From Escherichia coli (GTDB taxonomy: Bacteria; Pseudomonadota; Gammaproteobacteria; Enterobacterales; Enterobacteriaceae): a stretch of DNA of 23,806 nucleotides. The notes below the pieces were generated by a model. That model did no database searches. It saw only the letters and a list, made by a program, of their open reading frames with translations, and was not told the DNA's origin. Where the stretch lies: NCBI GenBank assembly GCA_025544715.1, contig GCA_025544715.1_4109.5; one strand, written 5' to 3'. The number at the start of each line of letters is the position of its first letter. The first letter of the stretch is position 1. Shown here in pieces: positions 1-15,082 of the stretch. The translations under genes and the position numbers were made by a program.

Positions 1-51
1 GTATAGTACTGAAAGCATTAATCAATGACAGAAAAAAGTTAAAATAATCTA

Positions 52-80
52 TTGACAATATCATCCAGTACTGGCATAAT
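52..80 (+). promoter_or_regulatory. sigma70-type promoter
   Basis: TTGACA (52-57), 17-nt spacer containing AGTACTG, CATAAT (75-80), then conserved ACTTACATCAAG start region. Confidence 0.6.
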
Positions 81-140
81 ACTTACATCAAGACGAGAAC
101 GTCACTAACCCATAGGGTGCACAAATGTAACTGTCTAATA

Positions 141-176
141 TTGATCAAAAAATGATCTGATCAATACTTGATCAAT
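141..176 (+). promoter_or_regulatory. cluster of TTGATCAA palindromes (four GATC sites in about 32 bp)
   Basis: attgatcaaaaaatgatctgatcaatacttgatcaatttg read directly; overlaps -35 of next promoter. Confidence 0.4.
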
Positions 177-195: not shown

Positions 196-378
196 TCTAT
201 GCAGTTGGTTAGACGAAAGGTTATGATTAGTAGTGGAAGTGTATAAAAATTTTCATGGTGTATCGTTTCGCACATATGGCAATGAATATGTGGTATCATG
301 TGGATTGGAAAAAGTAAGAACAAGTAATATTATTGTCGCATTACAGTACTATAGTATTTTTATAATGAGGTTAAAATA

Positions 379-636: not shown

Positions 637-642
637 AAAGTA

Positions 643-670
643 TTGACAGTACTGAAAGATAGTGTATACT
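643..670 (+). promoter_or_regulatory. sigma70-type promoter
   Basis: TTGACA (643-648), 16-nt spacer with AGTACTG, TATACT (665-670). Confidence 0.6.
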
Positions 671-699
671 ATTTTATATCTTAACTGAGGATTGAAATC

Positions 700-1056
700 A
701 TGGGTATTCAACACATCACGCGTACTACTGACAATGGCGAGATCACTGGCTATCAAGTACAGGGCAAAGTAGCACAATTGCAGTACTGGTTTGTAAAACG
801 TGGATTGATTGCACCGGATCTTGATTATGACCGTGTAGCGTTTATTGATTCTCTTTATGTTGATCCTGATAGTCGGGGCAATGGTGAAGGTAACGAATTA
901 ATGAATGCCTTTATTGATGCCGCCGATGATTCAGATTGTATCATTTTAGAATGCGATACGGGAGAAGATAACGCCTTTAATCTTAAAGAATGGTACGAAG
1001 GTTTCGGATTCGAGGTACTGATCGATAGTGAATATCCTATCATGATTTTATCATAG
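700..1056 (+). CDS. small GNAT-like N-acetyltransferase (118 aa)
   Basis: GAGG RBS; VDPDSRGNGEGNELM resembles GNAT motif A (R-x-x-G-x-G) and C-terminal FNLKEWYEGFGF resembles motif B; judged by eye only. Confidence 0.55.
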   Translation: MGIQHITRTTDNGEITGYQVQGKVAQLQYWFVKRGLIAPDLDYDRVAFIDSLYVDPDSRGNGEGNELMNAFIDAADDSDCIILECDTGEDNAFNLKEWYEGFGFEVLIDSEYPIMILS

Positions 1057-1059
1057 TAC

Positions 1060-1088
1060 TTGCATTTAGTTTTCAGTACTGTTATAGT
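1060..1088 (+). promoter_or_regulatory. sigma70-type promoter
   Basis: TTGCAT (1060-1065), 17-nt spacer with AGTACTG, TATAGT (1083-1088), ACTTACATCAAG downstream. Confidence 0.6.
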
Positions 1089-1100
1089 ACTTACATCAAG

Positions 1101-1117
1101 GGGAAACATCTTCCCCT
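1101..1117 (+). other. 5' leader stem-loop (GGGGAA / TTCCCC)
   Basis: 6-bp inverted repeat just downstream of predicted transcription start, upstream of RBS. Confidence 0.5.
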
Positions 1118-1128
1118 ACTAAGAGGAA

Positions 1129-1323
1129 ATGAAAATGGAAAACTTATCAAGTATTTTAGTACAAGATGATTTCGGTAATCCTGGAAGTGCTATCATTGTT
1201 CGGGGTAATAAAGCAACATTTGTTATTGCTGGTGGACCTGTACAGCGTAGCATTAAAAACAATGCCGTTACTATTAATAATGTACGCTATCGCTTAGATA
1301 AAGAATTGATTCATAAACTGTAA
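1129..1323 (+). CDS. hypothetical protein (64 aa)
   Basis: ORF after promoter, hairpin and AAGAGG; in-frame ATG at 1135 is an alternative start. Confidence 0.6.
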   Translation: MKMENLSSILVQDDFGNPGSAIIVRGNKATFVIAGGPVQRSIKNNAVTINNVRYRLDKELIHKL

Positions 1324-1350
1324 TATTAATTTAATAGAGGATAACAATAA

Positions 1351-1674
1351 ATGTACATTCATACTACTATCACAAAGGAAGTCCGTTGCCAGTTCGAAAG
1401 TATTCCGGGCGTATGTTTCATCACTGGTACGTTTTCCCCTGGTGATCGTGATAATCCAGTACTGTTACAATTACGCCATCCATCATGGGATAAAGCATTT
1501 GATCTACCGTTGAATGAATTCGCAACTACTGCTGAAAAGTACATTAAAAATATTCGTGAGAATGATCGACTATTCATTAATGCTTTTAGTGATTCCGCGT
1601 TAAGCGAGATCCACGGCGTATTGGTTGCAATCATGGAATCAATGGAGAAAACTAAATTCAAACAAGGTGAATAA
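1351..1674 (+). CDS. hypothetical protein (107 aa)
   Basis: GAGGA RBS 8-9 nt upstream of ATG. Confidence 0.65.
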   Translation: MYIHTTITKEVRCQFESIPGVCFITGTFSPGDRDNPVLLQLRHPSWDKAFDLPLNEFATTAEKYIKNIRENDRLFINAFSDSALSEIHGVLVAIMESMEKTKFKQGE

Positions 1675-1680
1675 AAACTA

Positions 1681-1709
1681 TTGACAATGTAATCTAGTAC
1701 TGTATAATA
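1681..1709 (+). promoter_or_regulatory. sigma70-type promoter (consensus)
   Basis: TTGACA (1681-1686), 17-nt spacer with AGTACTG, TATAAT (1704-1709). Confidence 0.7.
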
Positions 1710-1720
1710 AGTTACATGAA

Positions 1721-1741
1721 GGGGAGAAAATGATTCTCCCC
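1721..1741 (+). other. 5' leader stem-loop (GGGGAGAA / TTCTCCCC)
   Basis: perfect 8-bp inverted repeat with 5-nt loop between promoter and RBS. Confidence 0.6.
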
Positions 1742-1758
1742 ACTGAGAGGAAAGAAAA

Positions 1759-1971
1759 ATGCAAGGTCAACTAATCGTTCGTAAATGGTCTGATACTAAT
1801 GAAAAACCGTGGGATGTTCAATACATCGGACCGGATGGGGTATCACGTTATCAGCCTGGCGTAACGCATAGTACTGAGCAATTCGCCAACGCTCACCGCG
1901 AACGCCTGTTAGAATCCATGAAACAGGGATACGGTGAAAAATTCATTCAAGATCATTGGCTGAAAGATTAA
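1759..1971 (+). CDS. hypothetical protein (70 aa)
   Basis: promoter, leader hairpin, GAGAGG RBS, ATG. Confidence 0.7.
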   Translation: MQGQLIVRKWSDTNEKPWDVQYIGPDGVSRYQPGVTHSTEQFANAHRERLLESMKQGYGEKFIQDHWLKD

Positions 1972-1988
1972 TATAAGGAGTACAGCTT

Positions 1989-2081
1989 ATGCAAATGAAT
2001 CCGATGATTATTGTTTTAGCTGTACTTATGATCATTCATGCAATAGTAGAAGTATTAAATCAATCAGGAGTAATAAAATGA
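1989..2081 (+). CDS. small hydrophobic peptide (30 aa, MQMNPMIIVLAVLMIIHAIVEVLNQSGVIK)
   Basis: AAGGAG 8 nt upstream of ATG; below ORF-track size cutoff; stop overlaps next start (ATGA). Confidence 0.4.
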   Translation: MQMNPMIIVLAVLMIIHAIVEVLNQSGVIK

Positions 2082-2251
2082 TCCAGGTAGAATTAACAGT
2101 ACTGAAAGATCTGTTTTATCGGTTAGGTACTACTGGCGAGTATCCTAAAAGTGATACCGCAAAACTTTTTGTATCACTCGATTTATGGCAACGCGAACAA
2201 TTAGTAATGTCCTGGCGTAAAGGTAAAGCAGATAGCGAGGTGAAAGCATGA
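2078..2251 (+). CDS. hypothetical small protein (57 aa)
   Basis: translated by hand; ATGA overlap with neighbours on both sides. Confidence 0.45.
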   Translation: MIQVELTVLKDLFYRLGTTGEYPKSDTAKLFVSLDLWQREQLVMSWRKGKADSEVKA

Positions 2252-2397
2252 AAGAATTCTTATTCGAAGTAGTGTTTCAAGGTGTCGGTAGTAACCAACT
2301 GATTCGCTCAAGTGGTTACAATGTTAACCAGGCATGGAATAACATTAAACAAATGTACCCGAACGCTATCACATATCGCAACCCGAAAGAAGTTTAA
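2248..2397 (+). CDS. hypothetical small protein (49 aa)
   Basis: translated by hand; ATGA overlap upstream; ends just before terminator-like hairpin. Confidence 0.45.
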   Translation: MKEFLFEVVFQGVGSNQLIRSSGYNVNQAWNNIKQMYPNAITYRNPKEV

Positions 2398-2411
2398 AAA
2401 GAATTGAAAAA

Positions 2412-2433
2412 GGGATTGACTCCGGTCAGTCCC
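2412..2433 (+). terminator. terminator-like hairpin GGGATTGAC-TCCG-GTCAGTCCC
   Basis: 9-bp stem with one G-U pair and 4-nt loop, preceded by A-run, followed by TTTGCTATTATATA. Confidence 0.5.
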
Positions 2434-2444
2434 TTTGCTATTAT
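2416..2444 (+). promoter_or_regulatory. promoter embedded in hairpin
   Basis: TTGACT (2416-2421), 17-nt spacer, TATTAT (2439-2444). Confidence 0.55.
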
Positions 2445-2535
2445 ATACGCATAGAAACAAATCAGCCCACAGGGTGCATAAATGTATCTATTGTTTGCTG
2501 GTGGCTAGTACTGAAAACTATTTTTAAAAAAGTAC

Positions 2536-2563
2536 TTGCATTGTACTTAGAATCAAGTATAAT
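2536..2563 (+). promoter_or_regulatory. sigma70-type promoter of the AAAAAGTACTTGCA class
   Basis: A-tract, TTGCAT (2536-2541), 16-nt spacer, TATAAT (2558-2563), GTTTTACAT downstream; same cassette at 5262, 6118, 6453, 7961. Confidence 0.6.
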
Positions 2564-2651
2564 GTTTTACATCAGGACGGGGAACGAAACAAGTAACCCC
2601 GTTAAGTAGTCCAGGAGTAAGACATAAGAAAACCTCCCCTGATAAAATAGT

Positions 2652-2680
2652 TTGACAATAGAAAGTAAACGAGTATAATA
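2652..2680 (+). promoter_or_regulatory. sigma70-type promoter (consensus)
   Basis: TTGACA (2652-2657), 17-nt spacer, TATAAT (2675-2680), ACTTACATCAA downstream. Confidence 0.7.
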
Positions 2681-2712
2681 CTTACATCAACCACTGATAA
2701 GGAAACATTAAA

Positions 2713-2988
2713 ATGCGGATTCTACTGACAGCTAACGAAATCGAACAAGTACTGACTACTAACCTGGAAGACTGGAAACGTGAAGCAGATATCCAGGCGG
2801 TTCAATGGCTTAACGATAAGTTAACGCCGGATGACTTAAGCAAGATTGTAGATCCTCAATTCTACGAAGATATTCACGACACCGCGTTAAGCGTCGAGGA
2901 TGTACTTGATAAGCACTACATTGATATTGATTTGCAGGTTTACGGTCGTAAAAACTTTATCACTATTCACGACATTTACAATAATTAA
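2713..2988 (+). CDS. hypothetical protein (91 aa)
   Basis: AAGGA RBS 10 nt upstream of ATG; promoter upstream. Confidence 0.7.
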   Translation: MRILLTANEIEQVLTTNLEDWKREADIQAVQWLNDKLTPDDLSKIVDPQFYEDIHDTALSVEDVLDKHYIDIDLQVYGRKNFITIHDIYNN

Positions 2989-2991
2989 GTA

Positions 2992-3019
2992 TTGACAAAG
3001 TATCTTAGTACTGTATAAT
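2992..3019 (+). promoter_or_regulatory. sigma70-type promoter (consensus)
   Basis: TTGACA (2992-2997), 16-nt spacer with AGTACTG, TATAAT (3014-3019); almost identical to promoter at 5569. Confidence 0.7.
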
Positions 3020-3034
3020 AGTTTACATCAAGGC

Positions 3035-3052
3035 AGGGGGAATGGTTCCCCT
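3035..3052 (+). other. 5' leader stem-loop (AGGGGGA / TTCCCCT)
   Basis: inverted repeat with AATGG loop between promoter and RBS. Confidence 0.55.
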
Positions 3053-3076
3053 CCTAACTAAAAGAGAGAAATTAAA

Positions 3077-3400
3077 ATGGCTATGATCCTGTCCCAGAAA
3101 GTAGAACTGAAAATTGTAACCTCCTTTGACATTAAAGTGAATCGCTGGACTGATCGGAACGGTAACACTTACCACTCTTGCTACGTGTCCGCATTGATTG
3201 GTGATCGCTGGGAGGATTTAGGACACGAAACATTTACATACGGTTACGGCACTCAAGGCGAATACACGGGCTTGGAGATCATTAAAGAAACCGTTATAGG
3301 TTTCAACCCGAAAGAAAACGTTATTCACCGCATCGAGGAAGAGATCAACAAAGAAATAACAGTTCGCTACTACGATGTAAAACGTAAGAAAGATATGTAA
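3077..3400 (+). CDS. hypothetical protein (107 aa)
   Basis: promoter, leader hairpin, purine-rich RBS, ATG. Confidence 0.7.
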   Translation: MAMILSQKVELKIVTSFDIKVNRWTDRNGNTYHSCYVSALIGDRWEDLGHETFTYGYGTQGEYTGLEIIKETVIGFNPKENVIHRIEEEINKEITVRYYDVKRKKDM

Positions 3401-3422
3401 TAGAATCCATTTAAAGTACTAT

Positions 3423-3451
3423 TTGACATTGCCCAGATAGTACTTTATAAT
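3423..3451 (+). promoter_or_regulatory. sigma70-type promoter (consensus)
   Basis: TTGACA (3423-3428), 17-nt spacer with AGTACT, TATAAT (3446-3451). Confidence 0.7.
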
Positions 3452-3495
3452 AGACTCTAACTTGTAGTACTAACTTAACTAATAGGATATATACC

Positions 3496-3891
3496 ATGAT
3501 TACTAAATTCTACGCTACCCGTGAAGCTGCCCGTATTGTTGCACGCGAGGAAGGAGAAGCATTTAAAGACATGGGCAAAGATGCACCGAAAGGCCAACGC
3601 TGGGCCGTACAGTTCAAAGAAATCTCTGATATTGTGAATTCACCTGAGCCAGTACTAACAGCAGAAGAACAAAAACAAGCTGAAGAACTGGCGGCAATTC
3701 TTAACGCTCAAGATGAATTCGTCGCGGGTACTGATATCCAGGTTGTAGTAAATTCGAATGCATGGACTCACGCGGATCACCTGGCAAACCTGAAGCGTCC
3801 AAGTGAACTGATTCGCAACCAAAAAGAGATCCGTCATGACCGTAAGGGAAACCGTGTTACCGTATACAGTAAACGCCGCCAGGTTATCTAA
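3496..3891 (+). CDS. hypothetical protein (131 aa)
   Basis: AGGA RBS; consensus promoter upstream; followed by strong terminator. Confidence 0.7.
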   Translation: MITKFYATREAARIVAREEGEAFKDMGKDAPKGQRWAVQFKEISDIVNSPEPVLTAEEQKQAEELAAILNAQDEFVAGTDIQVVVNSNAWTHADHLANLKRPSELIRNQKEIRHDRKGNRVTVYSKRRQVI

Positions 3892-3913
3892 TAACTTGCA
3901 GTACTAACAACAC

Positions 3914-3938
3914 GGCGGGATCAGTTCCCGCCTTTTTT
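3914..3938 (+). terminator. rho-independent terminator
   Basis: GGCGGGA-TCAGT-TCCCGCC 7-bp GC-rich stem followed by TTTTTT. Confidence 0.8.
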
Positions 3939-3953
3939 ATAGGATAAACTAAA

Positions 3954-4208
3954 ATGATGAAGGTACAACTATCTAAAGATAATATCTTGCGGGTACACTA
4001 TAAAGCACCACAGAGAATCATCACAAAGGCCGTACAGCTTGCTAATGAGTTTATTAATGGTAGTCTATTACCCAGGAAGTTAAGCAACGGGAAACTACGT
4101 GTTATCGATGTAGACACTAACAACAGAATAGTAATTGAGAATACTGGAAAGATAAACCTTTATGAGCATCAACAGTATAATAAGAAAATAAAACTAATAT
4201 CACGTTGA
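3954..4208 (+). CDS. hypothetical protein (84 aa)
   Basis: AGGA RBS then ATG; lies directly after terminator, so expression may rely on read-through. Confidence 0.6.
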   Translation: MMKVQLSKDNILRVHYKAPQRIITKAVQLANEFINGSLLPRKLSNGKLRVIDVDTNNRIVIENTGKINLYEHQQYNKKIKLISR

Positions 4209-4233
4209 CAGTACTCAAATGTTTTAGTACTAT
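4205..4233 (+). promoter_or_regulatory. candidate sigma70-type promoter
   Basis: TTGACA (4205-4210) overlapping upstream stop codon, 17-nt spacer with two AGTACT, TACTAT (4228-4233). Confidence 0.5.
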
Positions 4234-4262
4234 GTATCTATACCAACACGGGGGAAAACAAA

Positions 4263-4505
4263 ATGATTACTTTAGAAAAACGTATCAAAGAAACTACATC
4301 GCTGGTGGAACTGTTAACTGTACTGAAATGCCGTACTACTCGGTTTAGTACACCGGACTTTATTAATATGGTTGATGTTAACGGTCGTTATCGCATTGCA
4401 GTAGAACAAGGAACAGCGAAAGTATTCAGTACTAAAAACACTAAGGAAGTGATTCACGCTGTAAGTGTTAAAAAAGTAGTTGCAATTGATAGTAAAGTAC
4501 TGTAA
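4263..4505 (+). CDS. hypothetical protein (80 aa)
   Basis: GGGGGA RBS then ATG. Confidence 0.6.
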   Translation: MITLEKRIKETTSLVELLTVLKCRTTRFSTPDFINMVDVNGRYRIAVEQGTAKVFSTKNTKEVIHAVSVKKVVAIDSKVL

Positions 4506-4536
4506 GATAGTTACATTAACTCAAGGAGAACATGCA

Positions 4537-5121
4537 ATGCGTCAATATACTAAATTCATCCGGTCCCTGTCAGAAATGGAAACTAATAAAGAGATCCTTT
4601 CAGCTTGTCGGTTAGCTGGTCTGGAAATCATCGGGGCCGGATCATCCCGTATAGTATTCGCTTTAAATGATCGGTTAGTGATTAAGGTCGCTAATTGTGA
4701 TGCGGGTGTAGAACAAAATGAAACTGAATGTAAGGTATGGAATTTTTTAGACTATGACCGCCCTCAGTTGAAACAGTTCTTTGCTAAGGTGCATATGCAT
4801 TTAAGCGATCCTGATAATATGTTTATTGTTATGGATCGTTTGAGTACTGCAAGCAAAGGCAGTGTAAAGCACGTTAACGCGTGCAACGAATTAAAGTACA
4901 ATATTAAACGTAATGCCATTGAACGCCAGCACCGCTTTGCTGATGCATTACAACACGTTGATGATACCTTATCAACCCTAACGTTAAGAGATATCAGAAA
5001 ACAGAACATCGGCCAGGATCGCAACGGCCTTATTAAAGTACTTGATTACGGTTTAACCCGCAATATCTGGAATCAGTACTATAAAAAGCGTGATGTAAAA
5101 GCCGTAACTATAACACGATAA
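4537..5121 (+). CDS. minimal protein-kinase-like protein (194 aa)
   Basis: AGGAGA RBS 7 nt upstream of ATG 4537 (ORF track extends to 4480). Gly-rich loop IGAGSSRIVF, then VIKV lysine, catalytic-loop-like DIRKQNIG (D-x-K-x-x-N) and DFG-like LDYG. Confidence 0.55.
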   Translation: MRQYTKFIRSLSEMETNKEILSACRLAGLEIIGAGSSRIVFALNDRLVIKVANCDAGVEQNETECKVWNFLDYDRPQLKQFFAKVHMHLSDPDNMFIVMDRLSTASKGSVKHVNACNELKYNIKRNAIERQHRFADALQHVDDTLSTLTLRDIRKQNIGQDRNGLIKVLDYGLTRNIWNQYYKKRDVKAVTITR

Positions 5122-5135
5122 AAAAGATTAAAAAT

Positions 5136-5157
5136 GGGATTGACTTCGGTCAGTCCC
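5136..5157 (+). terminator. terminator-like hairpin GGGATTGAC-TTCG-GTCAGTCCC
   Basis: 9-bp stem, UUCG tetraloop, U-containing tail; directly after stop of kinase-like gene. Confidence 0.5.
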
Positions 5158-5168
5158 TTTGCTATTAT
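5140..5168 (+). promoter_or_regulatory. promoter embedded in hairpin
   Basis: TTGACT, 17-nt spacer, TATTAT (5163-5168). Confidence 0.55.
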
Positions 5169-5261
5169 ATATTCATTGAGAGATAGCTCACTGACCCACA
5201 GGGTGCAGAAGTGTATCTATTATATAAGTATTCAGTACTGAAAACTATTTTTAAAAAGTAC

Positions 5262-5290
5262 TTGCAAACTATCTCAAATCGCGTATAATG
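5262..5290 (+). promoter_or_regulatory. sigma70-type promoter of the AAAAAGTACTTGCA class
   Basis: TTGCAA (5262-5267), 17-nt spacer, TATAAT (5285-5290). Confidence 0.6.
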
Positions 5291-5301
5291 TTTTATATCG
5301 A

Positions 5302-5323
5302 GAGGGGGAAATGGTTCTCCCTG
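5302..5323 (+). other. 5' leader stem-loop (GGGGGAA / TTCTCCC)
   Basis: inverted repeat with AATGG loop; the loop ATG is the spurious ORF-track start at 5311. Confidence 0.55.
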
Positions 5324-5343
5324 GTACATTAAGGAATAAAATC

Positions 5344-5565
5344 ATGACTACAATGACTTGCATTCACGCTTCAAACCTGCTTAATGATGCGGCCTTTAAT
5401 GTTGAAACAGAATATCAATGTTATCGGGATGAAAATAAAAAAGTTTTTGTAGTTGATAATAATGGTTTCCATATTGAATTGCAATCCGGTTTCACTGGCA
5501 TTGATGGTAAATCAGTATGGGGCGTACAGGACGATAAAGGCACATATCATTTTAAACGTAATTAA
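5344..5565 (+). CDS. hypothetical protein (73 aa)
   Basis: start moved from 5311 (hairpin loop) to ATG 5344, 8 nt after AAGGA. Confidence 0.6.
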   Translation: MTTMTCIHASNLLNDAAFNVETEYQCYRDENKKVFVVDNNGFHIELQSGFTGIDGKSVWGVQDDKGTYHFKRN

Positions 5566-5568
5566 GTA

Positions 5569-5596
5569 TTGACAAAGTATATCAGTACTGTATAAT
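5569..5596 (+). promoter_or_regulatory. sigma70-type promoter (consensus)
   Basis: TTGACAAAGTAT-ATCAGTACTG-TATAATAGTTTACATCAAGG, near-identical to 2992-3033. Confidence 0.7.
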
Positions 5597-5608
5597 AGTT
5601 TACATCAA

Positions 5609-5627
5609 GGGGAGAATAGTTCTCCCC
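5609..5627 (+). other. 5' leader stem-loop (GGGGAGAA / TTCTCCCC)
   Basis: perfect 8-bp inverted repeat, loop TAG. Confidence 0.6.
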
Positions 5628-5649
5628 GATACTAAAAGGAAACAAAATT

Positions 5650-5922
5650 ATGTCTAGCTACTCCGCTACTATGATCATTAAAGATATGAACGGTAATCCT
5701 ACTTCTGCTGGTGGATCATTTGGAAACATTAACTTAGATGGTCGGTTATCAATTGAATCAGCCATCAATGCAGCGAAAGAAGTTTTTAAGAATGAATGTA
5801 CTGTAAGCAAGCTGGATTATATGGGCTTCGCTATCGAAAAAACTAATCGTTTTGTGGACTACAAAAAACCACTGATGATTGATACTAACCTGAAAGCGAA
5901 CGAAGTGGAATACTTATTATGA
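5650..5922 (+). CDS. hypothetical protein (90 aa)
   Basis: AAGGA RBS then ATG. Confidence 0.65.
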   Translation: MSSYSATMIIKDMNGNPTSAGGSFGNINLDGRLSIESAINAAKEVFKNECTVSKLDYMGFAIEKTNRFVDYKKPLMIDTNLKANEVEYLL

Positions 5923-6110
5923 CAGTTGAAGAAGTTAAAAAAGTACTGGCAGTACTACGCTATCATAATCATTGCAAGGTTAAGAATGATCCTGATTATC
6001 TTGATTCATCCCTGGAAGAGGATACACTACAAGCAATAAGCCATATGCAAAAAATGCTTAAGCGTATGACTGAAAAGAATAGACCGGACTATATCGGAAA
6101 TAAAATTTAA
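5919..6110 (+). CDS. hypothetical protein (63 aa)
   Basis: ATGA overlap with upstream stop, suggesting translational coupling. Confidence 0.55.
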   Translation: MTVEEVKKVLAVLRYHNHCKVKNDPDYLDSSLEEDTLQAISHMQKMLKRMTEKNRPDYIGNKI

Positions 6111-6117
6111 AAAGTAC

Positions 6118-6145
6118 TTGCATTGTAGTTAGATTAACGTATAAT
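6118..6145 (+). promoter_or_regulatory. sigma70-type promoter of the AAAAAGTACTTGCA class
   Basis: TTGCAT (6118-6123), 16-nt spacer, TATAAT (6140-6145). Confidence 0.6.
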
Positions 6146-6157
6146 GTTTTACATAGA

Positions 6158-6178
6158 GCGGGGGAATAGTTCTCCCGC
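6158..6178 (+). other. 5' leader stem-loop (GCGGGGGAA / TTCTCCCGC)
   Basis: 9-bp stem with one G-U pair; same hairpin repeated at 7132-7152. Confidence 0.6.
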
Positions 6179-6196
6179 CAGTCCAGGAGATACACC

Positions 6197-6463
6197 ATGA
6201 ACACTATCGAAATCACTATCAATGCTCACGTATACGACAACGTAGTACTGCAAACTACTATGACCGCTCACGATACCAGTACTTTGCGGAATACCGTTGT
6301 AAGTGCTGTATGTGCTGCAATCGGTGATGTAGCCCTGGAAAATGCAGAACACATCAACAACGGTTTCACTATGTGCAAGCGTGATAACGCAAAACATATC
6401 ATCGTAGAAGGTTACGGCGGTGTAGAATATAACCTTTATATGAAAAAAGTACTTGCATCGTAA
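6197..6463 (+). CDS. hypothetical protein (88 aa)
   Basis: CCAGGAG RBS then ATG. Confidence 0.65.
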   Translation: MNTIEITINAHVYDNVVLQTTMTAHDTSTLRNTVVSAVCAAIGDVALENAEHINNGFTMCKRDNAKHIIVEGYGGVEYNLYMKKVLAS

Positions 6464-6480
6464 TTAAAACAAAGTATAAT
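6453..6480 (+). promoter_or_regulatory. sigma70-type promoter overlapping end of upstream CDS
   Basis: AAAAAGTACTTGCAT with TTGCAT at 6453-6458, 16-nt spacer, TATAAT (6475-6480). Confidence 0.55.
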
Positions 6481-6490
6481 GTTTTGCATA

Positions 6491-6509
6491 GGGGGAGATA
6501 TCCTCCCCC
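6491..6509 (+). other. 5' leader stem-loop (GGGGGAG / CTCCCCC)
   Basis: perfect 7-bp inverted repeat, loop ATATC. Confidence 0.6.
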
Positions 6510-6528
6510 ACTAATAAGGAGTACTAAA

Positions 6529-6753
6529 ATGGCTAATCATGATGACCTGATTCGGGAAGTAGCTAACCTGGCGGCAGAAAAGAAATCATTCGATTCTATC
6601 TATAACACCGCTCACCGTGATTCAGTACTGGCATCAACGCAAGATCAAAAAGATGAACTGATCGCCACCTATCATGAAGCATGGAAGTATTACCGCCAAT
6701 GGGAGAAAGAAGAAAGTGAGTCTACCATTGACGGCCTCAATAATCTAATCTAA
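6529..6753 (+). CDS. hypothetical protein (74 aa)
   Basis: ORF-track start 6484 is a TTG upstream of the hairpin; ATG 6529 follows AAGGAG RBS. Confidence 0.65.
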   Translation: MANHDDLIREVANLAAEKKSFDSIYNTAHRDSVLASTQDQKDELIATYHEAWKYYRQWEKEESESTIDGLNNLI

Positions 6754-6771
6754 AGTTTTATTTCAGTACTA

Positions 6772-6800
6772 TTGACAATACTGGATAGTACTGATATGAT
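6772..6800 (+). promoter_or_regulatory. sigma70-type promoter
   Basis: TTGACA (6772-6777), 17-nt spacer with AGTACTG, TATGAT (6795-6800). Confidence 0.55.
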
Positions 6801-6827
6801 AACTTTACTATCTAAAGGGGAAACATA

Positions 6828-7085
6828 ATGGAACAGTTCACACAATATCGGGTAAATCCTCAAGCTATGGCCTATGTAGAAGACCATAAAACATTACCAG
6901 TACTGCAACCAGTTAAAGGTCATATCTATCGTGCAATGTCATGGAGTAACGCCCAGGATGGATATACTACCGCCGCCGTGGGTATGTACTGCGGGAATGG
7001 TGAATGGTTTGATCCTAGTAATCCGGTAGCCATTGACAGTACTGAAAAAATGAAATGGGCCGACTACATCGAAGATATTTCATAA
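6828..7085 (+). CDS. hypothetical protein (85 aa)
   Basis: AAAGGGGA RBS then ATG. Confidence 0.65.
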   Translation: MEQFTQYRVNPQAMAYVEDHKTLPVLQPVKGHIYRAMSWSNAQDGYTTAAVGMYCGNGEWFDPSNPVAIDSTEKMKWADYIEDIS

Positions 7086-7091
7086 AACTAT

Positions 7092-7119
7092 TTGACAGTA
7101 CTAACCAGTAATGTATAAT
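7092..7119 (+). promoter_or_regulatory. sigma70-type promoter
   Basis: TTGACA (7092-7097), 16-nt spacer with AGTACT, TATAAT (7114-7119), GTTTTACATAGAG downstream. Confidence 0.65.
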
Positions 7120-7131
7120 GTTTTACATAGA

Positions 7132-7152
7132 GCGGGGGAATAGTTCTCCCGC
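7132..7152 (+). other. 5' leader stem-loop (GCGGGGGAA / TTCTCCCGC)
   Basis: identical to hairpin at 6158-6178. Confidence 0.6.
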
Positions 7153-7174
7153 CAATAGTTTGGAGTAAAACATT

Positions 7175-7375
7175 ATGTCTATCGCTATCGCCCTGGTTGA
7201 AGTACTGAAAGAAGCTAAAGCCAACCTTATCGATGTACAGATTAAGGAATTGCAAAATGGTTTAATCGGCTGTACTTGTACCGCTGGTGGAGCGGCAGAC
7301 TATCGGGAATTCGAATCACTTGAATCGATGGTCCGTTATCTTACCATGATCGTAGAAGATTGGAGAATCATCTAA
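7175..7375 (+). CDS. hypothetical protein (66 aa)
   Basis: GGAG RBS then ATG. Confidence 0.6.
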   Translation: MSIAIALVEVLKEAKANLIDVQIKELQNGLIGCTCTAGGAADYREFESLESMVRYLTMIVEDWRII

Positions 7376-7393
7376 CAAAAAAGAATAAAAAAA

Positions 7394-7415
7394 GGGATTG
7401 ACTCCGGTCAGTCCC
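7394..7415 (+). terminator. terminator-like hairpin GGGATTGAC-TCCG-GTCAGTCCC
   Basis: same hairpin as 2412-2433. Confidence 0.5.
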
Positions 7416-7426
7416 TTTGCTATTAT
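7398..7426 (+). promoter_or_regulatory. promoter embedded in hairpin
   Basis: TTGACT, 17-nt spacer, TATTAT (7421-7426). Confidence 0.55.
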
Positions 7427-7538
7427 ATACGCATAGACAAAAACTAGCCCACTGGGTGCAGGAGTGTATCCAAAATATATAGTTAATAACGGTGAGTAAC
7501 TATTTGCTGGTGGAGTGAAAACTATTAATAAAAAACTA

Positions 7539-7567
7539 TTGACAAAGTATATCAGTACTGCAATAAT
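7539..7567 (+). promoter_or_regulatory. candidate sigma70-type promoter
   Basis: TTGACAAAGTATATCAGTACTG then AATAAT; weaker -10 than sibling promoter at 5569. Confidence 0.5.
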
Positions 7568-7620
7568 GTATCTCGTAGGGCGGCAATGGTGCGACGGCCC
7601 ACAAAGTTAGGAGTAACATC

Positions 7621-7953
7621 ATGTCTACATCAATCGCTATCGTTAAAGCTTTCATCCGTACCAATGTTTCTTCTGTATTCATCGACGGTCTGGATCGGGA
7701 AGTAGAATACTCAATCATTATCGCACAGACTGCAAACGGTGCTCGGTACATCCTGAATGATAGTGAAGCAAATCACTACTACTTCACTAAAGCTACTGGC
7801 TTTAAACGCATCGATGCTGACGTAGTATACGCTAAGATGAATAAGCTGGTAGACAAGATTAACGCTAAAGGTACTATAGATTTACAGTACTGGAACGAAA
7901 CCGATCCAGAATACGGATCTCACCGCTACCTGAATCCAGGAATTAAAATGTAA
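7621..7953 (+). CDS. hypothetical protein (110 aa)
   Basis: TTAGGAG RBS then ATG; GC-rich leader hairpin upstream. Confidence 0.7.
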   Translation: MSTSIAIVKAFIRTNVSSVFIDGLDREVEYSIIIAQTANGARYILNDSEANHYYFTKATGFKRIDADVVYAKMNKLVDKINAKGTIDLQYWNETDPEYGSHRYLNPGIKM

Positions 7954-7960
7954 AAAGTAC

Positions 7961-7988
7961 TTGCATAGTACTTAGAATCAAGTATAAT
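7961..7988 (+). promoter_or_regulatory. sigma70-type promoter of the AAAAAGTACTTGCA class
   Basis: about 45 bp identical to promoter at 2527-2570. Confidence 0.6.
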
Positions 7989-8000
7989 GTTTTACATAGA

Positions 8001-8022
8001 GAGGGAGAAATGGTTCTCCCTC
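8001..8022 (+). other. 5' leader stem-loop (GAGGGAGAA / TTCTCCCTC)
   Basis: perfect 9-bp inverted repeat with ATGG loop; loop ATG is the spurious ORF-track start 8010. Confidence 0.6.
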
Positions 8023-8042
8023 CTAAATTAAGGAGTTTTATC

Positions 8043-8444
8043 ATGACCTTCTCAATCAATTCCTTCGCTGACGTTTTAGTACTGGCACGGACTTTCGGTA
8101 AAGATGCACTGGAGTACGCTGTAAGTAATGGCACTATCCAACCGGAACAATGCCGCATCATTGGAAACTGCAAACGTTGGGCGGTATCCAATACTATTGC
8201 ACTGGAAAACTTCAACGATGGCAACAATGAATATTCTGTTGATGTAGTATTCGAAGCCGTTGATCTCGGCGGTATCTATAACACTAACTTGAATGATGTG
8301 CGTATCGTTCGCACGGGGTTCGGTGCTTATGATGTATCTATCCGTGAAGCTATGGACAAGGGATACATTAGCAAGGACTTACTTGCTCACATCATGCAGC
8401 TGTGGACGGAACGTAACGAAGCACGTACTATCTTAGGGCTGTAA
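8043..8444 (+). CDS. hypothetical protein (133 aa)
   Basis: start moved from 8010 to ATG 8043, which follows AAGGAG RBS. Confidence 0.65.
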   Translation: MTFSINSFADVLVLARTFGKDALEYAVSNGTIQPEQCRIIGNCKRWAVSNTIALENFNDGNNEYSVDVVFEAVDLGGIYNTNLNDVRIVRTGFGAYDVSIREAMDKGYISKDLLAHIMQLWTERNEARTILGL

Positions 8445-8468
8445 GCAATACACATCACCAAACATCAT

Positions 8469-8488
8469 AGGCCGCTCTCTAGCGGCCT
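8469..8488 (+). other. GC-rich palindrome AGGCCGCT-CTCT-AGCGGCCT
   Basis: 8-bp perfect inverted repeat in AT-rich context; no U-run, so not a classic terminator. Confidence 0.35.
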
Positions 8489-8512
8489 TAACTATATCAG
8501 GAGGGCATACAT

Positions 8513-8722
8513 ATGTTCTATACCGTATACAGCGTTCTAGGTACTATTGCAGGCGTACATGATAACGTCAATGATGCTATGCGTACAGTACTGCAACAGG
8601 TTCCACTAAAGCCTAAGACTGTTAAGCAGATGACAGCACGACTAACCAGGGCGACGGATGGCGTGGAAGTATGGCAGGACTACGGGGATACACAGATAAT
8701 CGTTAGCGTAACGAAGGATTAA
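8513..8722 (+). CDS. hypothetical protein (69 aa)
   Basis: AGGAGG RBS then ATG. Confidence 0.6.
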   Translation: MFYTVYSVLGTIAGVHDNVNDAMRTVLQQVPLKPKTVKQMTARLTRATDGVEVWQDYGDTQIIVSVTKD

Positions 8723-8750
8723 TGCGTAAAGGGATCTAGTACTGATTCAG

Positions 8751-8816
8751 AAAAAAGTCAAGGCGTTTTTAAAATTATGCGTTAAAAAAATGCATAGGTA
8801 ATCCCTTGACTTTTTT
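8751..8816 (+). other. 13-bp perfect inverted repeat flanking a 40-bp spacer; possible bidirectional terminator or operator
   Basis: AAAAAAGTCAAGG (8751-8763) and CCTTGACTTTTTT (8804-8816) are exact reverse complements; inner TATGC/GCATA pair. Confidence 0.35.
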
Positions 8817-8913
8817 GAAATAAAAGGGATTGGACTATGGCAAAATGCGTAGGGGGCTAAAGGGCGGGTAACCTTAGCGACTTCGATAAAGGGGTATTAC
8901 GAATAAAATGTTA

Positions 8914-8971: not shown

Positions 8972-9169
8972 ATGCATATTTTAACTCAAGCAGAACACCA
9001 CGAAAGACTTATCAATAACATGGCTATGATAATGTATAAGTCACATGAACGTGGTATGTCCTATAAGCGTGAATTAGTTATGGCACTATTCATTGGGACT
9101 AACTTTCAGGAAAGGTATGTCAACGATTGGATTTGGTATTTAATTGAAGATATAACGAGTAAACTATGA
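8972..9169 (+). CDS. family-1 paralog 1 (LGTNYQ-motif small protein)
   Basis: AAGGGAG RBS then ATG 8972 (ORF-track start 8942 is upstream of the RBS); C-terminal LFIGTNFQERYV...IEDITSKL. Confidence 0.65.
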   Translation: MHILTQAEHHERLINNMAMIMYKSHERGMSYKRELVMALFIGTNFQERYVNDWIWYLIEDITSKL

Positions 9170-9366
9170 AAATGCGTAAATTAACCGAAAAAGAATATCA
9201 AGCACTGTTACGTAAAAACTACACAAAGATTTATAATACAGACTCACACGTAGAAAGAATGGAGTTATACCTTTTGATTACATTGGGAACTAACTATCAG
9301 GATGCATGGGTAACGAAATATGTGGATACATTGAAAAATAAAACATTGTCCACGAGGAAACAATGA
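9166..9366 (+). CDS. family-1 paralog 2
   Basis: ATGA overlap; ITLGTNYQDAWV motif. Confidence 0.7.
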   Translation: MKMRKLTEKEYQALLRKNYTKIYNTDSHVERMELYLLITLGTNYQDAWVTKYVDTLKNKTLSTRKQ

Positions 9367-15059: not shown

Positions 15060-15082
15060 GAGTACTGATAGTACAAATGTTC

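What the first reader, a model, noticed from the sequence alone, without database searches (positions are those of the whole stretch)
2406..7470. Three-copy intergenic cassette: terminator-like hairpin with embedded promoter plus conserved CCCACAGGGTGCA box
At 2406-2488, 5131-5217 and 7388-7470 the same roughly 80-bp module recurs: an A-run, the hairpin GGGATTGAC-(TCCG or TTCG)-GTCAGTCCC with a T-containing tail, and inside it TTGACT, 17 nt, TATTAT; about 22-27 nt further on comes the box CCCAC(A/T)GGGTGCA..(G)TGTATC. A fourth box (CCCATAGGGTGCA, 109-121) follows the first promoter of the window. The genes flanking the three copies are not paralogs, so the cassette itself appears to have spread. 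This is reminiscent of the promoter-early stem-loop cassettes described in T4-type phages, but that link is an analogy only.
Basis: partly seen in the sequence, partly recalled or inferred. Interest (0 to 1): 0.7.

Follow-up and report, generated by a model that had tools for sequence, protein, structure and literature searches.

The report
Terminator-promoter cassette launching a conserved phage RNA
The repeated 85-bp module is a stop-and-restart signal for transcription in the terminal repeat of a giant E. coli phage, and the "box" behind it is the core of a previously undescribed, structured ~55-nt RNA made in 10-14 copies per repeat, function unknown.

Summary
The window is an Asteriusvirus (PBECO4/121Q-like, about 350 kb) jumbo coliphage. 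Positions 1 to about 8874 are the right part of its about 21-kb direct terminal repeat (DTR).

The "cassette" is two separable modules.

1. A stable hairpin flanked by A- and T-runs. Its 5' arm is the -35 hexamer of a strong sigma70 promoter (TTGACT-17-TGcTATTAT). This is a PeSL-type terminator/promoter composite. I found 45 distinct instances in relatives, half of them without the box.

2. The box is RNA rather than a DNA operator. It always lies about 20 nt after a predicted sigma70 start. It is preceded by a short hairpin (P1) with abundant compensatory changes. It sits in two mutually exclusive helices, RCCC-N3/4-GGGU and GGGUG:YRYYY.

A covariance model finds 123 distinct copies in at least four genera and in metagenomic jumbo contigs. 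In a complete 352-kb genome it finds 11, all inside the DTR-equivalent region. Copies lie on both strands, some as promoter-RNA-terminator units and some as convergent pairs with fixed spacing.

There is no Rfam match, no paper holding the sequence, and no bacterial genome copy. Function is unknown. I favour a protein- or RNAP-binding pre-early RNA.

Co-oriented Chi sites are also clustered in the DTR, two of them inside the cassettes.

The parts
2409..2436 (+). Cassette 1 hairpin AAAGGGAUUGAC-UCCG-GUCAGUCCCUUU (core 2412-2433). Terminator-like, with an A-run 5' and a T-rich tail 3'.
   Evidence: MFE -19.5 kcal/mol, z -5.0. Orthologous hairpins are annotated as terminators in UE-S1, Muenster and GAP32.
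2416..2444 (+). Cassette 1 sigma70-type promoter. The -35 TTGACT (2416-2421) is the 5' arm of the hairpin. The spacer is 17 nt, with TG at 2436-2437. The -10 TATTAT is at 2439-2444. The predicted start is A2451.
   Evidence: 10 of 12 matches, TG present. A conserved 'cA' lies 7 nt after the -10 in all family members.
2443..2499 (+). Box RNA copy 1, the variant without P1 (A-rich 5' segment AUAGAAACAAAUCAG). P2 pairs 2465-2468 with 2472-2475. P3 pairs 2472-2476 with 2485-2489.
   Evidence: Covariance model R1 hit, 53.0 bits. Pair counts.
2497..2504 (+). Chi site GCTGGTGG in the tail of cassette 1.
5136..5157 (+). Cassette 2 hairpin GGGAUUGAC-UUCG-GUCAGUCCC.
   Evidence: MFE -15.2 kcal/mol, z -4.0.
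5140..5168 (+). Cassette 2 promoter. The -35 is at 5140-5145 and the -10 at 5163-5168, with a TG extended -10. The predicted start is A5175.
5172..5228 (+). Box RNA copy 2, with P1 (GAG 5178-5180 pairing CUC 5187-5189, loop AGAUAG). The box is at 5195-5207. P3 pairs 5201-5205 with 5214-5218.
   Evidence: R1 hit, 58.1 bits. P1 fold.
7391..7418 (+). Cassette 3 hairpin, identical to that of cassette 1.
7398..7426 (+). Cassette 3 promoter. The -35 is at 7398-7403 and the -10 at 7421-7426. The predicted start is A7433.
7425..7481 (+). Box RNA copy 3, the variant without P1. The box is at 7448-7460. P3 pairs 7454-7458 with 7467-7471.
   Evidence: R1 hit, 51.2 bits.
7506..7513 (+). Chi site GCTGGTGG in the tail of cassette 3.
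52..80 (+). Ordinary, hairpin-less sigma70 promoter TTGACA-17-CATAAT with AGTACTG in the spacer. It drives box RNA copy 4.
86..142 (+). Box RNA copy 4. The predicted start is A87. P1 pairs GACG 92-95 with CGUC 100-103. The box is at 109-121.
   Evidence: R1 hit, 49.2 bits. P1 fold.
8874..8875 (.). Right boundary of the direct terminal repeat, by homology to the annotated DTR end of vB_Ec-M-J. All box RNAs and Chi sites of the window lie to its left.
   Evidence: DTR annotation. A DTR of about 21 kb was verified by restriction digests for fEgEco12 (PMC13070987).

Best explanation
Each module does two things in about 140 bp.

(1) Stop and restart. The hairpin, flanked by A- and T-runs, acts in RNA as an intrinsic terminator for transcripts coming from the upstream early genes. 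In duplex DNA the same sequence supplies the -35 hexamer (5' arm), the spacer (3' arm plus T-run) and a TGn-extended -10 of a strong host-sigma70 promoter. Transcription therefore stops and restarts at one place. This is a PeSL-type terminator/promoter composite.

(2) A conserved RNA. The restarted transcript begins with a conserved, structured domain of about 55 nt. It starts at pppA. It then has either a short hairpin P1 with an A-rich loop at +3 to +18, or an unpaired A-rich equivalent as in copies 1 and 3. Next comes RCCC-N3/4-GGGU (P2), which competes with GGGUG(C)-N6-8-(G)YRYYY (P3) for the same GGGU. A -10-like UAUWNU follows.

This domain is one member of a family of 10-14 copies per terminal repeat. 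The family is confined to the pre-early, DTR part of Rak2-like jumbo phage genomes and is made by host RNA polymerase immediately after DNA entry.

Inferred function, not shown: the domain works as RNA. It is a bistable protein- or RNA-polymerase-binding tag or decoy carried by pre-early transcripts and by stand-alone sRNAs of about 100 nt. The upstream terminator guarantees that it sits at a native 5' end.

How sure I am of each step:
- Anatomy, transcription-unit logic and RNA-level selection: about 0.85.
- The trans-acting sRNA/decoy reading specifically: about 0.35.
For: Hairpin and promoter:
- The copies are exact and non-random.
- The folds are stable.
- The outer stem covaries across genera: GGGA/UCCC, GGGG/CCCC, AGUAC/GUACU, AGGC/GCCU and GAGG/CCUC. 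The inner TTGAC/GUYAR part is fixed by the -35.
- Independent annotators called these hairpins terminators, and called -35/-10 signals there.

The box is RNA:
- All 71 model hits in the first eight sources have a sigma70-like promoter at a fixed distance. 57 score at least 10 of 12, against 0 of 71 shuffled controls.
- All 4 pairs of P1 show changes on both sides: 103 cells against 43 +/- 4.6 in shuffles, with 0 of 500 shuffles reaching the observed value. Slid registers are far lower (unfitted alignment).
- P1 is predicted in 50 of 60 copies. Mean MFE is -3.1 against -0.9 kcal/mol for shuffles.
- P3 is 97% paired, with only Y opposite G and R opposite U.
- P2: CCC/GGG is invariant in 117 of 123 copies. 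CCU..AGG compensation appears in two genera. The loop has 14 types of 3-4 nt. The base before CCC is always a purine that can pair with U.

Family and distribution:
- There are 123 distinct copies.
- A complete genome has 11, all within 88.9-104.9 kb of 352 kb.
- The DTR boundary is at window position about 8874.

Independent units:
- Minus-strand copies are followed 30-45 nt later by canonical terminators, with no ORF.
- All four window copies have another sigma70-like promoter 35-162 nt downstream, before the next gene.

Other points:
- A -10-like hexamer sits at one fixed offset in 57 of 123 copies.
- No Rfam family matches.
Against: - No transcript data exist for any of these phages in the searched literature. 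Starts, ends and abundance are all predicted.
- The + strand U-tract of copies 1-3 is short (UUUGCUAUUAU), so termination efficiency is uncertain.
- Most + strand copies have no terminator of their own. Their RNA would be the 5' leader of an mRNA rather than a discrete sRNA.
- P2 and P3 are each weak helices (about -2 to -3 kcal/mol, my own estimate). The 5' strand of P3 was fixed by my selection pattern, so only one-sided variation could be scored.
- No binding partner or target was found. The only complementary sequences in a whole genome are other copies on the opposite strand.
- Copies 1 and 3 lack P1.
Confidence: 0.6

Rival explanations
1. Cis-acting processivity or antitermination RNA of the HK022 put type. 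The nascent box RNA folds during a sigma-dependent pause and binds the RNA polymerase that made it. That polymerase then reads through the many hairpin terminators of the pre-early region, while polymerases from box-less promoters stop.
For: - The domain starts at +3 of early sigma70 transcripts, as putL does. putL has its first pair at A3 and a -10-like element inside it, proposed to aid folding by pausing (PMC9378689).
- A -10-like hexamer is found at a fixed offset after P3 in 57 of 123 copies.
- The region is full of terminators, and box promoters are often placed right at them.
- The phage relies on host polymerase for these promoters.
Against: - About a quarter of the copies point away from any gene.
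- Several copies are followed within 30-45 nt by a canonical terminator and nothing else.
- Many form convergent pairs.
- There are 10-14 copies per repeat, against two put sites in HK022.
- No sequence or Rfam relationship was found.
- The domain is about 55 nt with weak helices, against about 73 nt with two long stems and a triplex for put.
Confidence: 0.2
2. 5' stabiliser or processing signal. P1 at the extreme 5' end protects pre-early RNAs from RppH/RNase E attack. The box is a site for a specific endonuclease that later inactivates or matures them, as T4 RegB or the T7 RNase III sites do.
For: - P1 begins 2-5 nt from the predicted 5' end in most copies.
- GGAG occurs in the P3 loop of 21 of 71 copies.
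- A ParE/RelE-like nuclease gene lies in the same region, at window 3954-4208.
Against: - Copies 1 and 3 of this window, and 10 of 60 overall, have no P1.
- Stabilisation does not explain an invariant 12-nt core, the P2/P3 competition, or the copies without a downstream gene.
- GGAG is not conserved.
Confidence: 0.12
3. No RNA function. The whole module is only a recombination and regulatory cassette (PeSL). The box is kept similar by gene conversion between copies, or it is a DNA site, for example an operator for early shut-off or an origin or packaging element of the terminal repeat.
For: - Indel breakpoints between this window and TH47 lie at repeated promoter modules: 1323/1673, 5321/6106 and 7087/7378.
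- The second cassette of TH47 is a chimera of a copy-1-like 5' half and a copy-2-like 3' half.
- The family is strictly confined to the DTR.
- Convergent pairs make DNA palindromes with fixed spacing.
- Chi sites lie next to two copies.
Against: - Gene conversion would homogenise P1. Instead P1 has about 20 different stem sequences that keep pairing through changes on both sides.
- The core is invariant across genera whose flanks have diverged to about 75% identity or less.
- The element has a fixed position and orientation relative to a promoter in 71 of 71 copies. A DNA site would not need this.
Confidence: 0.08

Closest known systems
PeSL (promoter-early stem-loop) cassettes of T4-type phages (Arbiol et al. 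2010, PMC2839356; Comeau et al. 2014, PMC4122927)
   Same: - A composite of an A/T-rich tract, a sigma70-consensus early promoter and a stable stem-loop that overlaps the promoter. Overlap with the -35 is one of the five described classes.
- Intergenic, in regions dense with small ORFans, with many copies.
- Breakpoints of indels between close relatives lie at such repeats.
   Different: - Found here in Rak2-like jumbo phages rather than Tequatrovirus-like phages.
- The three window copies are not followed by the Shine-Dalgarno sequence and start codon of a gene. They are followed by a conserved structured RNA domain of about 55 nt and usually a second promoter.
- Promoter and terminator activity and mini-circles are untested.
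HK022 put RNA (cis-acting antitermination RNA)
   Same: - A structured RNA at the very 5' end of early transcripts made by host sigma70 polymerase.
- Multi-helix, with covariation between copies.
- A -10-like element is associated with it.
   Different: - 10-14 copies on both strands, some without downstream genes.
- A shorter domain with weak, mutually exclusive helices.
- No sequence relationship shown and no functional data.
Lambda nut sites (boxA + boxB)
   Same: P1 is a short stem with a purine-rich loop of 4-8 nt (most often 6-7), like boxB, located in early leaders.
   Different: - No boxA-like sequence lies near any copy.
- The order and the conserved core differ.
- No N-like protein was identified.
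Highly expressed ncRNAs in the terminal repeat of jumbo phage PA5oct (PMC7318152)
   Same: A distant relative of the same jumbo-phage clade has two ORF-less, highly transcribed regions located in its DTR.
   Different: - Those RNAs are 236 and 451 nt and single copy.
- They are reported to lack similarity to other sequences.
- No relationship to the box RNA was tested.
Terminal clusters of co-oriented Chi sites in P1 and LLS-type lambdoid phages (PMC12315714)
   Same: GCTGGTGG is strongly enriched and co-oriented near a genome end or terminal repeat.
   Different: - This concerns a side observation. Only 2 of the 6 window Chi sites lie in the cassettes.
- It is not reported for jumbo phages in the papers searched.

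Membership tests
PeSL cassette | Sigma70-consensus-like early promoter | tested here: met
   TTGACT-17-TATTAT with TGn, 10 of 12 matches. The same holds for 45 hairpin-promoter instances.
PeSL cassette | A stable stem-loop placed in or next to the promoter. Five classes are described, including overlap with the -35. | tested here: met
   Stems of 9-12 bp, -15 to -19.5 kcal/mol, z -4 to -5. The -35 is the 5' arm. The outer stem covaries.
PeSL cassette | A/T-rich tract upstream of the -35 | tested here: met
   AAAAAGAATTGAAAAA, AAAAAAGATTAAAAAT and AAAAAGAATAAAAAAA precede the hairpins.
PeSL cassette | Intergenic position in a hyperplastic region of small ORFans, in many copies | tested here: met
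   ORF map. Relatives annotate almost only hypothetical proteins. Only 5 of 20 ORFs have a Pfam hit. 45 distinct instances.
PeSL cassette | The 3' end carries the Shine-Dalgarno sequence and start codon of the downstream gene | tested here: not met
   In the three window copies the next ORF starts 92-223 nt after P3, and another promoter intervenes. The feature is met by box-less copies elsewhere, for example TH47 122,882 and 127,302.
PeSL cassette | Recombination between copies causes indels or replacements between close relatives | tested here: inconclusive
   Three indels against TH47 end at repeated promoter modules, one at the left edge of cassette 3, and there is one chimeric copy. Only one pair of genomes was compared, and the clearest case involves another promoter family.
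PeSL cassette | Demonstrated promoter and terminator activity; mini-circles | not testable with these tools
   Needs reporter fusions and inverse PCR.
HK022 put-type RNA | Lies in the nascent early transcript of a sigma70 promoter and folds into defined helices | tested here: met
   putL facts from PMC9378689.
HK022 put-type RNA | About 70 nt, two long stem-loops in a V shape, with a triplex in stem I | tested here: not met
   The domain is about 55 nt. It has a P1 of 3-5 bp plus two short competing helices.
HK022 put-type RNA | Heads an operon whose terminators it suppresses | tested here: inconclusive
   True for many + strand copies. False for minus-strand and convergent copies, and for units ending in a terminator.
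HK022 put-type RNA | Acts through the beta' zinc-binding domain to suppress pausing and termination | not testable with these tools
   Biochemical.
Lambda nut site | boxA (CGCUCUUA-like) next to a boxB hairpin | tested here: not met
   No YGCTCTTWA match (up to 1 mismatch) falls within or next to any of the four copies.
Any Rfam family (ribozymes, riboswitches, sRNAs, tRNA-like) | Covariance-model match | tested here: not met
   No match at gathering score over the whole window. Nothing at E up to 10 in positions 1-8200 except one chance snoRNA hit elsewhere. No tRNA or tmRNA.
Rho-independent terminator | G+C-rich stem followed by a U-tract | tested here: inconclusive
   The stem criterion is met. 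The + strand tail is UUUGCUAUUAU in the window copies, and 4-6 U in many relatives. The minus-strand side has 5-7 U.

The most novel reading that the evidence does not exclude
The box RNA is a new class of multi-copy, bistable non-coding RNA made in the first minutes of jumbo-phage infection. It either reprograms the host RNA polymerase that transcribes it, a put-like mechanism without a protein factor, or it titrates a conserved enterobacterial protein or defence sensor. The terminator-embedded promoter exists to give it a clean 5' end. The convergent pairs at the repeat ends would then be a dedicated way of making short, defined RNAs or double-stranded RNA.
Probability: 0.35. Interest if true: 0.85.

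Novelty: new variant of a known kind. Interest (0 to 1): 0.66.

Why it matters
Rak2-like jumbo phages (Asteriusvirus, Alcyoneusvirus, Mimasvirus, Eneladusvirus) are being developed for therapy. Yet more than 80% of their genes, and all of their early regulation, are unknown.

- **A starting point.** A structured RNA confined to the terminal repeat, made from the strongest host-type promoters, with about 12 copies per repeat and 24 per packaged genome, is likely to be among the first and most abundant products of infection. It gives a concrete, testable entry into pre-early takeover.
- **Wider reach for PeSLs.** PeSL-type terminator/promoter composites are shown here outside the classical T4-like phages. 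This supports their proposed role as general shuffling and insulation modules.
- **Practical uses.** The module is a very compact (about 45 bp) stop-and-restart part for synthetic biology. The alignment is ready for submission as a new RNA family.

Tried and rejected
- **Rfam and tRNA scans.** Rfam at gathering score and at E up to 10, and ARAGORN, found nothing.
- **Loose pattern scan of IMG/VR.** A 15-base pattern gave 120 stretches, almost all chance single hits. The covariance model kept only jumbo-like contigs.
- **Bacterial genomes.** An exact 20-base consensus scan of 185,579 bacterial and archaeal genomes gave 0 hits. There is no evidence for a host copy or a widespread prophage copy.
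- **Literature.** Full-text search for the box, its complement and the hairpin gave 0 papers. The CBB, phAPEC6, fEgEco12 and PA5oct papers do not describe the elements.
- **Mini-ORF idea.** AUG UAU CUA ... after the box is not conserved. Many copies have no start codon.
- **CsrA or RegB motif in the P3 loop.** GGA occurs in 30 of 71 copies and GGAG in 21 of 71, so neither is a family feature.
- **Antisense target search.** In the complete TH47 genome the reverse complement of the box occurs only as other family copies on the opposite strand, plus one unrelated terminator palindrome at 7126.
- **Own terminator after the box in the window copies.** None was found. Only a weak AGUACU...AGUACU stem appears.
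- **nut boxA.** Absent.
- **Resemblances recalled from memory.** I noted possible resemblance to the tmRNA PK1 region, to RNase P RNA segments and to CRISPR repeats. I could not test these and do not rely on them.
- **One broad literature search** was uninformative.

Full report

Yes.
- The 22-nt hairpin GGGATTGACTYCGGTCAGTCCC is present at 2412-2433, 5136-5157 and 7394-7415, all on the + strand, with none expected by chance.
- The box CCCAYWGGGTGCA is present at 109, 2466, 5195 and 7448, all on the + strand. Expectation is 0.54, and no shuffle of 100 reaches four matches.
- Each hairpin contains TTGACT, 17 nt, TATTAT, with TG two bases before the -10. That is an extended -10.
- The hairpins are very stable for their length: -19.5 kcal/mol (z = -5.0) for copy 1, which is identical in copy 3, and -15.2 kcal/mol (z = -4.0) for copy 2.
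- The genes on either side of the three copies are unrelated.

**2. Where are we?**

- The window is 90-95% identical to Asteriusvirus jumbo coliphages of about 350 kb, such as SHEFM2K, PBECO4, 121Q and phAPEC6.
- These phages have a direct terminal repeat of about 21 kb. It is annotated in vB_Ec-M-J and Muenster and was verified by restriction digests for fEgEco12.
- The annotated repeat end of vB_Ec-M-J maps to window position about 8874. Window 1-8874 is therefore the right-hand part of the repeat, and the rest is unique sequence.
- The repeat part is packed with small ORFs, nearly every one behind its own sigma70-type promoter.
- The few ORFs with a Pfam match look like host-takeover genes:
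  - a DksA/TraR zinc finger
  - a GNAT acetyltransferase
  - a ParE/RelE-like toxin
  - a kinase-like protein

**3. The cassette is two independent modules.**

- I collected hairpins whose 5' arm is TTGAC from this window, a complete relative genome (TH47) and the repeat regions of Klebsiella, Cronobacter, Pectobacterium and Yersinia relatives. This gave 45 distinct instances.
- 23 are followed by a box and 22 are not. The box-less ones include a run outside the repeat, where the promoter is followed directly by a gene.
- Conversely, the box follows ordinary, hairpin-less promoters in many places. Window position 109 is one, and copies occur on either strand.
- The outer stem of the hairpin changes by compensatory substitutions between genera: GGGA/UCCC, GGGG/CCCC, AGUAC/GUACU, AGGC/GCCU and GAGG/CCUC. 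The inner stem is fixed, because it is the -35 hexamer and its complement.
- Independent annotators marked the orthologous hairpins as terminators in UE-S1, Muenster and GAP32 (the last using ARNold). In fHe-Yen9-03 they marked -35/-10 signals under the match.

**4. The box is part of a structured RNA.**

*Promoter coupling*
- Every one of the 71 copies found in eight sources lies at a fixed distance behind a sigma70-like promoter.
- 57 score at least 10 of 12, against none of 71 shuffled controls. 48 have the TGn extension.
- A conserved 'cA' lies 7 nt after the -10, so the RNA would begin 2-5 nt before the first helix.

*P1*
- Between the start and the box there is a short hairpin, P1 (3-5 bp, A-rich loop such as AGAUAA, GCGAAA, GAGAAA or AGAACAA).
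- Its stem sequence differs from copy to copy but stays paired. Examples: GGC/GCC, GAG/CUC, CCA/UGG, GACG/CGUC, GGAG/CUCC, CCAC/GUGG, AGACA/UGUCU.
- It is predicted in 50 of 60 copies. Mean energy is -3.1 against -0.9 kcal/mol for shuffles.
- On a plain ungapped alignment, all four pairs show changes on both sides: 78 cells against 38 +/- 4.5 in shuffles, with 0 of 500 shuffles as high.
- On the model-fitted alignment the figures are 103 against 43 +/- 4.6, again 0 of 500. Every slid register is far lower.
- Ten of 60 copies, including copies 1 and 3 of this window, replace P1 with an unpaired A-rich stretch. That stretch is itself conserved between E. coli and Cronobacter phages.

*The core: two helices that share GGGU*
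- P3 is GGGUG paired to a variable YRYYY, 6-8 nt downstream. It is paired in 97% of cells: U is opposite A or G only, and G is opposite U or C only. Slid registers give 25-66%.
- Because I selected copies by the GGGTGC motif, only one-sided variation could be seen in P3.
- P2 is RCCC-N3/4-GGGU. The three C-G pairs are invariant in 117 of 123 distinct copies.
- The P2 loop has 14 different sequences of 3 or 4 nt. The base before CCC is always a purine, which can pair with the U.
- The rare CCU variants carry the matching AGG in two different genera.
- One copy, with GGA, keeps P3 but breaks P2.
- I conclude that both helices are under selection and are alternatives. This is an inference.

*After P3*
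- A -10-like hexamer (Y-A-U-W-N-U) sits at one fixed offset in 57 of 123 copies.
- AGUAC(UG) follows within 20 nt in 52 of 105 copies, against about 14% expected.

**5. Size and range of the family.**

- The covariance model built from 60 copies finds 11 copies in the complete 352-kb TH47 genome. All lie between 88.9 and 104.9 kb, the repeat-equivalent region, and nothing else appears at E up to 1.
- In the first 30 kb of GAP32 and CBB it finds 13 and 14 copies.
- With Yersinia, Klebsiella, IMG/VR and metagenome contigs, there are 123 distinct sequences.
- All contigs that hold real copies are jumbo-sized or are fragments carrying several copies.
- The consensus is absent from 185,579 representative bacterial and archaeal genomes, from Rfam and from the searchable literature.

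**6. Contexts.**

- + strand copies precede genes. In this window, another sigma70-like promoter lies 35-162 nt further on, before the gene, in all four cases.
- Roughly a quarter of the copies are on the minus strand, where there are almost no genes.
- Several minus-strand copies are followed 30-45 nt after P3 by a canonical terminator, with no ORF. That gives units of about 100 nt.
- Many copies form convergent pairs. The two 57-nt model matches either abut exactly or lie 20-24 nt apart, a spacing conserved from E. coli to Yersinia phages.
- None of these pairs is in the window itself.

**7. Recombination.**

- Against TH47 the window has three indels. Their ends lie at repeated promoter modules:
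  - 1323/1673
  - 5321/6106, between two copies of another promoter family
  - 7087/7378, the left edge of cassette 3
- The second cassette of TH47 combines a copy-1-like 5' half with a copy-2-like 3' half.
- This is what the PeSL model predicts, but it rests on one genome pair.

**8. Mechanism.**

*Shown by sequence analysis*
- A stable hairpin with an embedded strong promoter.
- RNA-level selection on the first 55 nt or so of its transcript.
- A multi-copy family restricted to the terminal repeat.

*Inferred*
- The hairpin terminates upstream early transcripts.
- The promoter then restarts transcription, so the conserved domain sits at a native triphosphate 5' end.
- The domain acts as RNA by binding a protein or the polymerase.

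*Weighing the readings*
- I rank a trans-acting, abundant pre-early RNA (a decoy or tag) first. Stand-alone units, minus-strand copies and second promoters show that the RNA is often not needed as a leader for a gene.
- The put-like cis model is second. It has the same position in early sigma70 transcripts and a fixed -10-like element that could pause the polymerase while the RNA folds. It fits badly with copies that face no gene, or that face a terminator.
- A pure stabiliser or processing role, or a pure DNA or recombination role, explains less. In particular, neither explains the invariant core together with the freely covarying P1.

**9. Comparison with known systems.**

- The hairpin-promoter half meets the sequence-level definition of a PeSL, with one exception. 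In the three window copies the promoter is not followed by a ribosome-binding site and start codon.
- It is the same kind of element in a different phage group. The CBB paper places that group as a distant T4 relative by its portal protein.
- The RNA half has no counterpart in PeSLs. It is not a nut site, since there is no boxA. It fails two structural features of put, and it matches no Rfam family.
- The nearest thematic parallel is the pair of highly expressed ORF-less transcripts in the terminal repeat of PA5oct. They are much longer, and no relationship was tested.

**10. Side observations.**

- Chi (GCTGGTGG) occurs six times on the + strand and never on the minus strand, all within window 1228-7506. 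About 0.06 per strand is expected.
- Two of the six lie in the tails of cassettes 1 and 3.
- The same co-oriented cluster is present in all the relatives examined, with opposed Chi pairs near the left genome end.
- Terminal Chi clusters are known for P1 and LLS-type lambdoid phages. They were not mentioned for jumbo phages in the papers I searched.
- The palindrome AGTACT is 7.7-fold over-represented genome-wide, and CAGTACTG 56-fold. AGTACT peaks in the repeat region.

**11. Limits.**

- No transcript, termination or binding data exist, so all starts and ends are predictions.
- E-values of the home-made model are rough.
- The fitted alignments lean toward the model structure. For that reason I also report the unfitted counts and the alignment-free fold test.

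Noticed in passing
window 1228, 2497, 4301, 5707, 7283, 7506 (+ strand). Also L127/L136 (vB_Ec-M-J) at 588-, 600+, 7402-, 7464+ and seven further + strand sites (nine + in all) within the 21.5-kb repeat.: Chi sites (GCTGGTGG) are strongly enriched and co-oriented in the terminal repeat. The window has 6 on + and 0 on -, against about 0.06 expected per strand, and none in the 15 kb of unique sequence. Klebsiella, Cronobacter, Pectobacterium and Yersinia relatives show the same pattern. The orientation is the one read by RecBCD entering from the right end. Opposed Chi pairs sit near the left end. Similar terminal clusters are known for P1 and LLS-type lambdoids (PMC12315714).
   Followed up: partly
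window, 70 sites. 53 lie in positions 1-8874. Further clusters lie at 13513-15604 and 23549-23761.: The palindrome AGTACT is 7.7-fold over-represented in the related TH47 genome (917 against 119 expected). CAGTACTG is 56-fold over-represented (203 against 3.6). AGTACT density is threefold higher in the repeat region. The motif sits in the spacer of many early promoters (TTGACA-N9-AGTACTG-g-CATAAT), just upstream of the -35 of another promoter family, and 5-20 nt after half of the box RNAs. The sites could be operators for a regulator, or could form hairpins when paired. Unexplained.
   Followed up: partly
window 2527-2584, 5253-5310, 6109-6166, 6444-6501, 7083-7140, 7952-8009: A second repeated promoter family: AAAAAGTACTTGCA-N16-TATAATGTTTTACAT. 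In three copies it is followed by a 5' stem-loop (GAGAGGGGGAAATGGTTCTCCC) and then the ribosome-binding site. An ATG inside the loop makes ORF callers start ORFs 5311 and 8010 too early, which produces the shared 'MVLPxxLR' N-termini. A 0.8-kb deletion in TH47 has its ends in two of these copies.
   Followed up: partly
L127 1234-1350 and 3507-3621; L003 3766-3880, 6595-6709, 22876-22990; L004 985-1099, 3795-3909, 20817-20931; L005 282-415, 2546-2661; L006 4892-5029; L007 8027-8159: Convergent pairs of box RNA genes: two facing promoters whose 57-nt RNA domains abut exactly or lie 20-24 nt apart. The spacing is conserved across genera. The pairs are mostly near the ends of the terminal repeat, in ORF-free DNA. 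Read-through would give a 12-16-bp box/anti-box helix or double-stranded RNA. Their purpose is unknown.
   Followed up: partly
window 143-173: Four GATC sites within 31 bp (TTGATCAAAAAATGATCTGATCAATACTTGATCAA), directly after box RNA copy 4 and overlapping the -35 of the next promoter (168-195).
   Followed up: no
window 9166-14725: Just beyond the terminal-repeat boundary there is an array of about 25 overlapping ORFs of about 70 aa. They are paralogous (repeat families D2, D5, D8-D14 and others), with a conserved '...LGTNYQE...' motif.
   Followed up: no
window 3954-4208, 379-636 and 4480-5121: Pre-early ORFs with Pfam matches: a ParE/RelE-like toxin domain (annotated as a YafQ-like ribonuclease in phage Muenster), a DksA/TraR C4 zinc finger (likely an RNA-polymerase secondary-channel binder) and a weak protein-kinase match.
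   Followed up: partly
window 3914-3932: GGCGGGATCAGTTCCCGCC is the only other strong + strand terminator-like hairpin in the repeat part of the window, and it also scores on the minus strand. It has no embedded promoter.
   Followed up: no
L007 about 8200-8330 and L003 about 3560-3700 (minus strand): Next to the leftmost convergent pair, two distant phages share a further ORF-free conserved stretch (…TCGCGGAAGGGGAGCTAATGGAA… against …GACGCGGTAGGCTAGCCAATGGAAAA…) behind a promoter-like sequence. It may be another non-coding RNA.
   Followed up: no
window 2489-2494, 5218-5223 and 7471-7476, and the equivalent offset in 57 of 123 family members: A -10-like hexamer (UAUWNU, often TATAAT, TATAGT or TATTAT) begins at the last base of the P3 3' strand. 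It could be a sigma-dependent pause signal, or simply part of the RNA consensus.
   Followed up: partly
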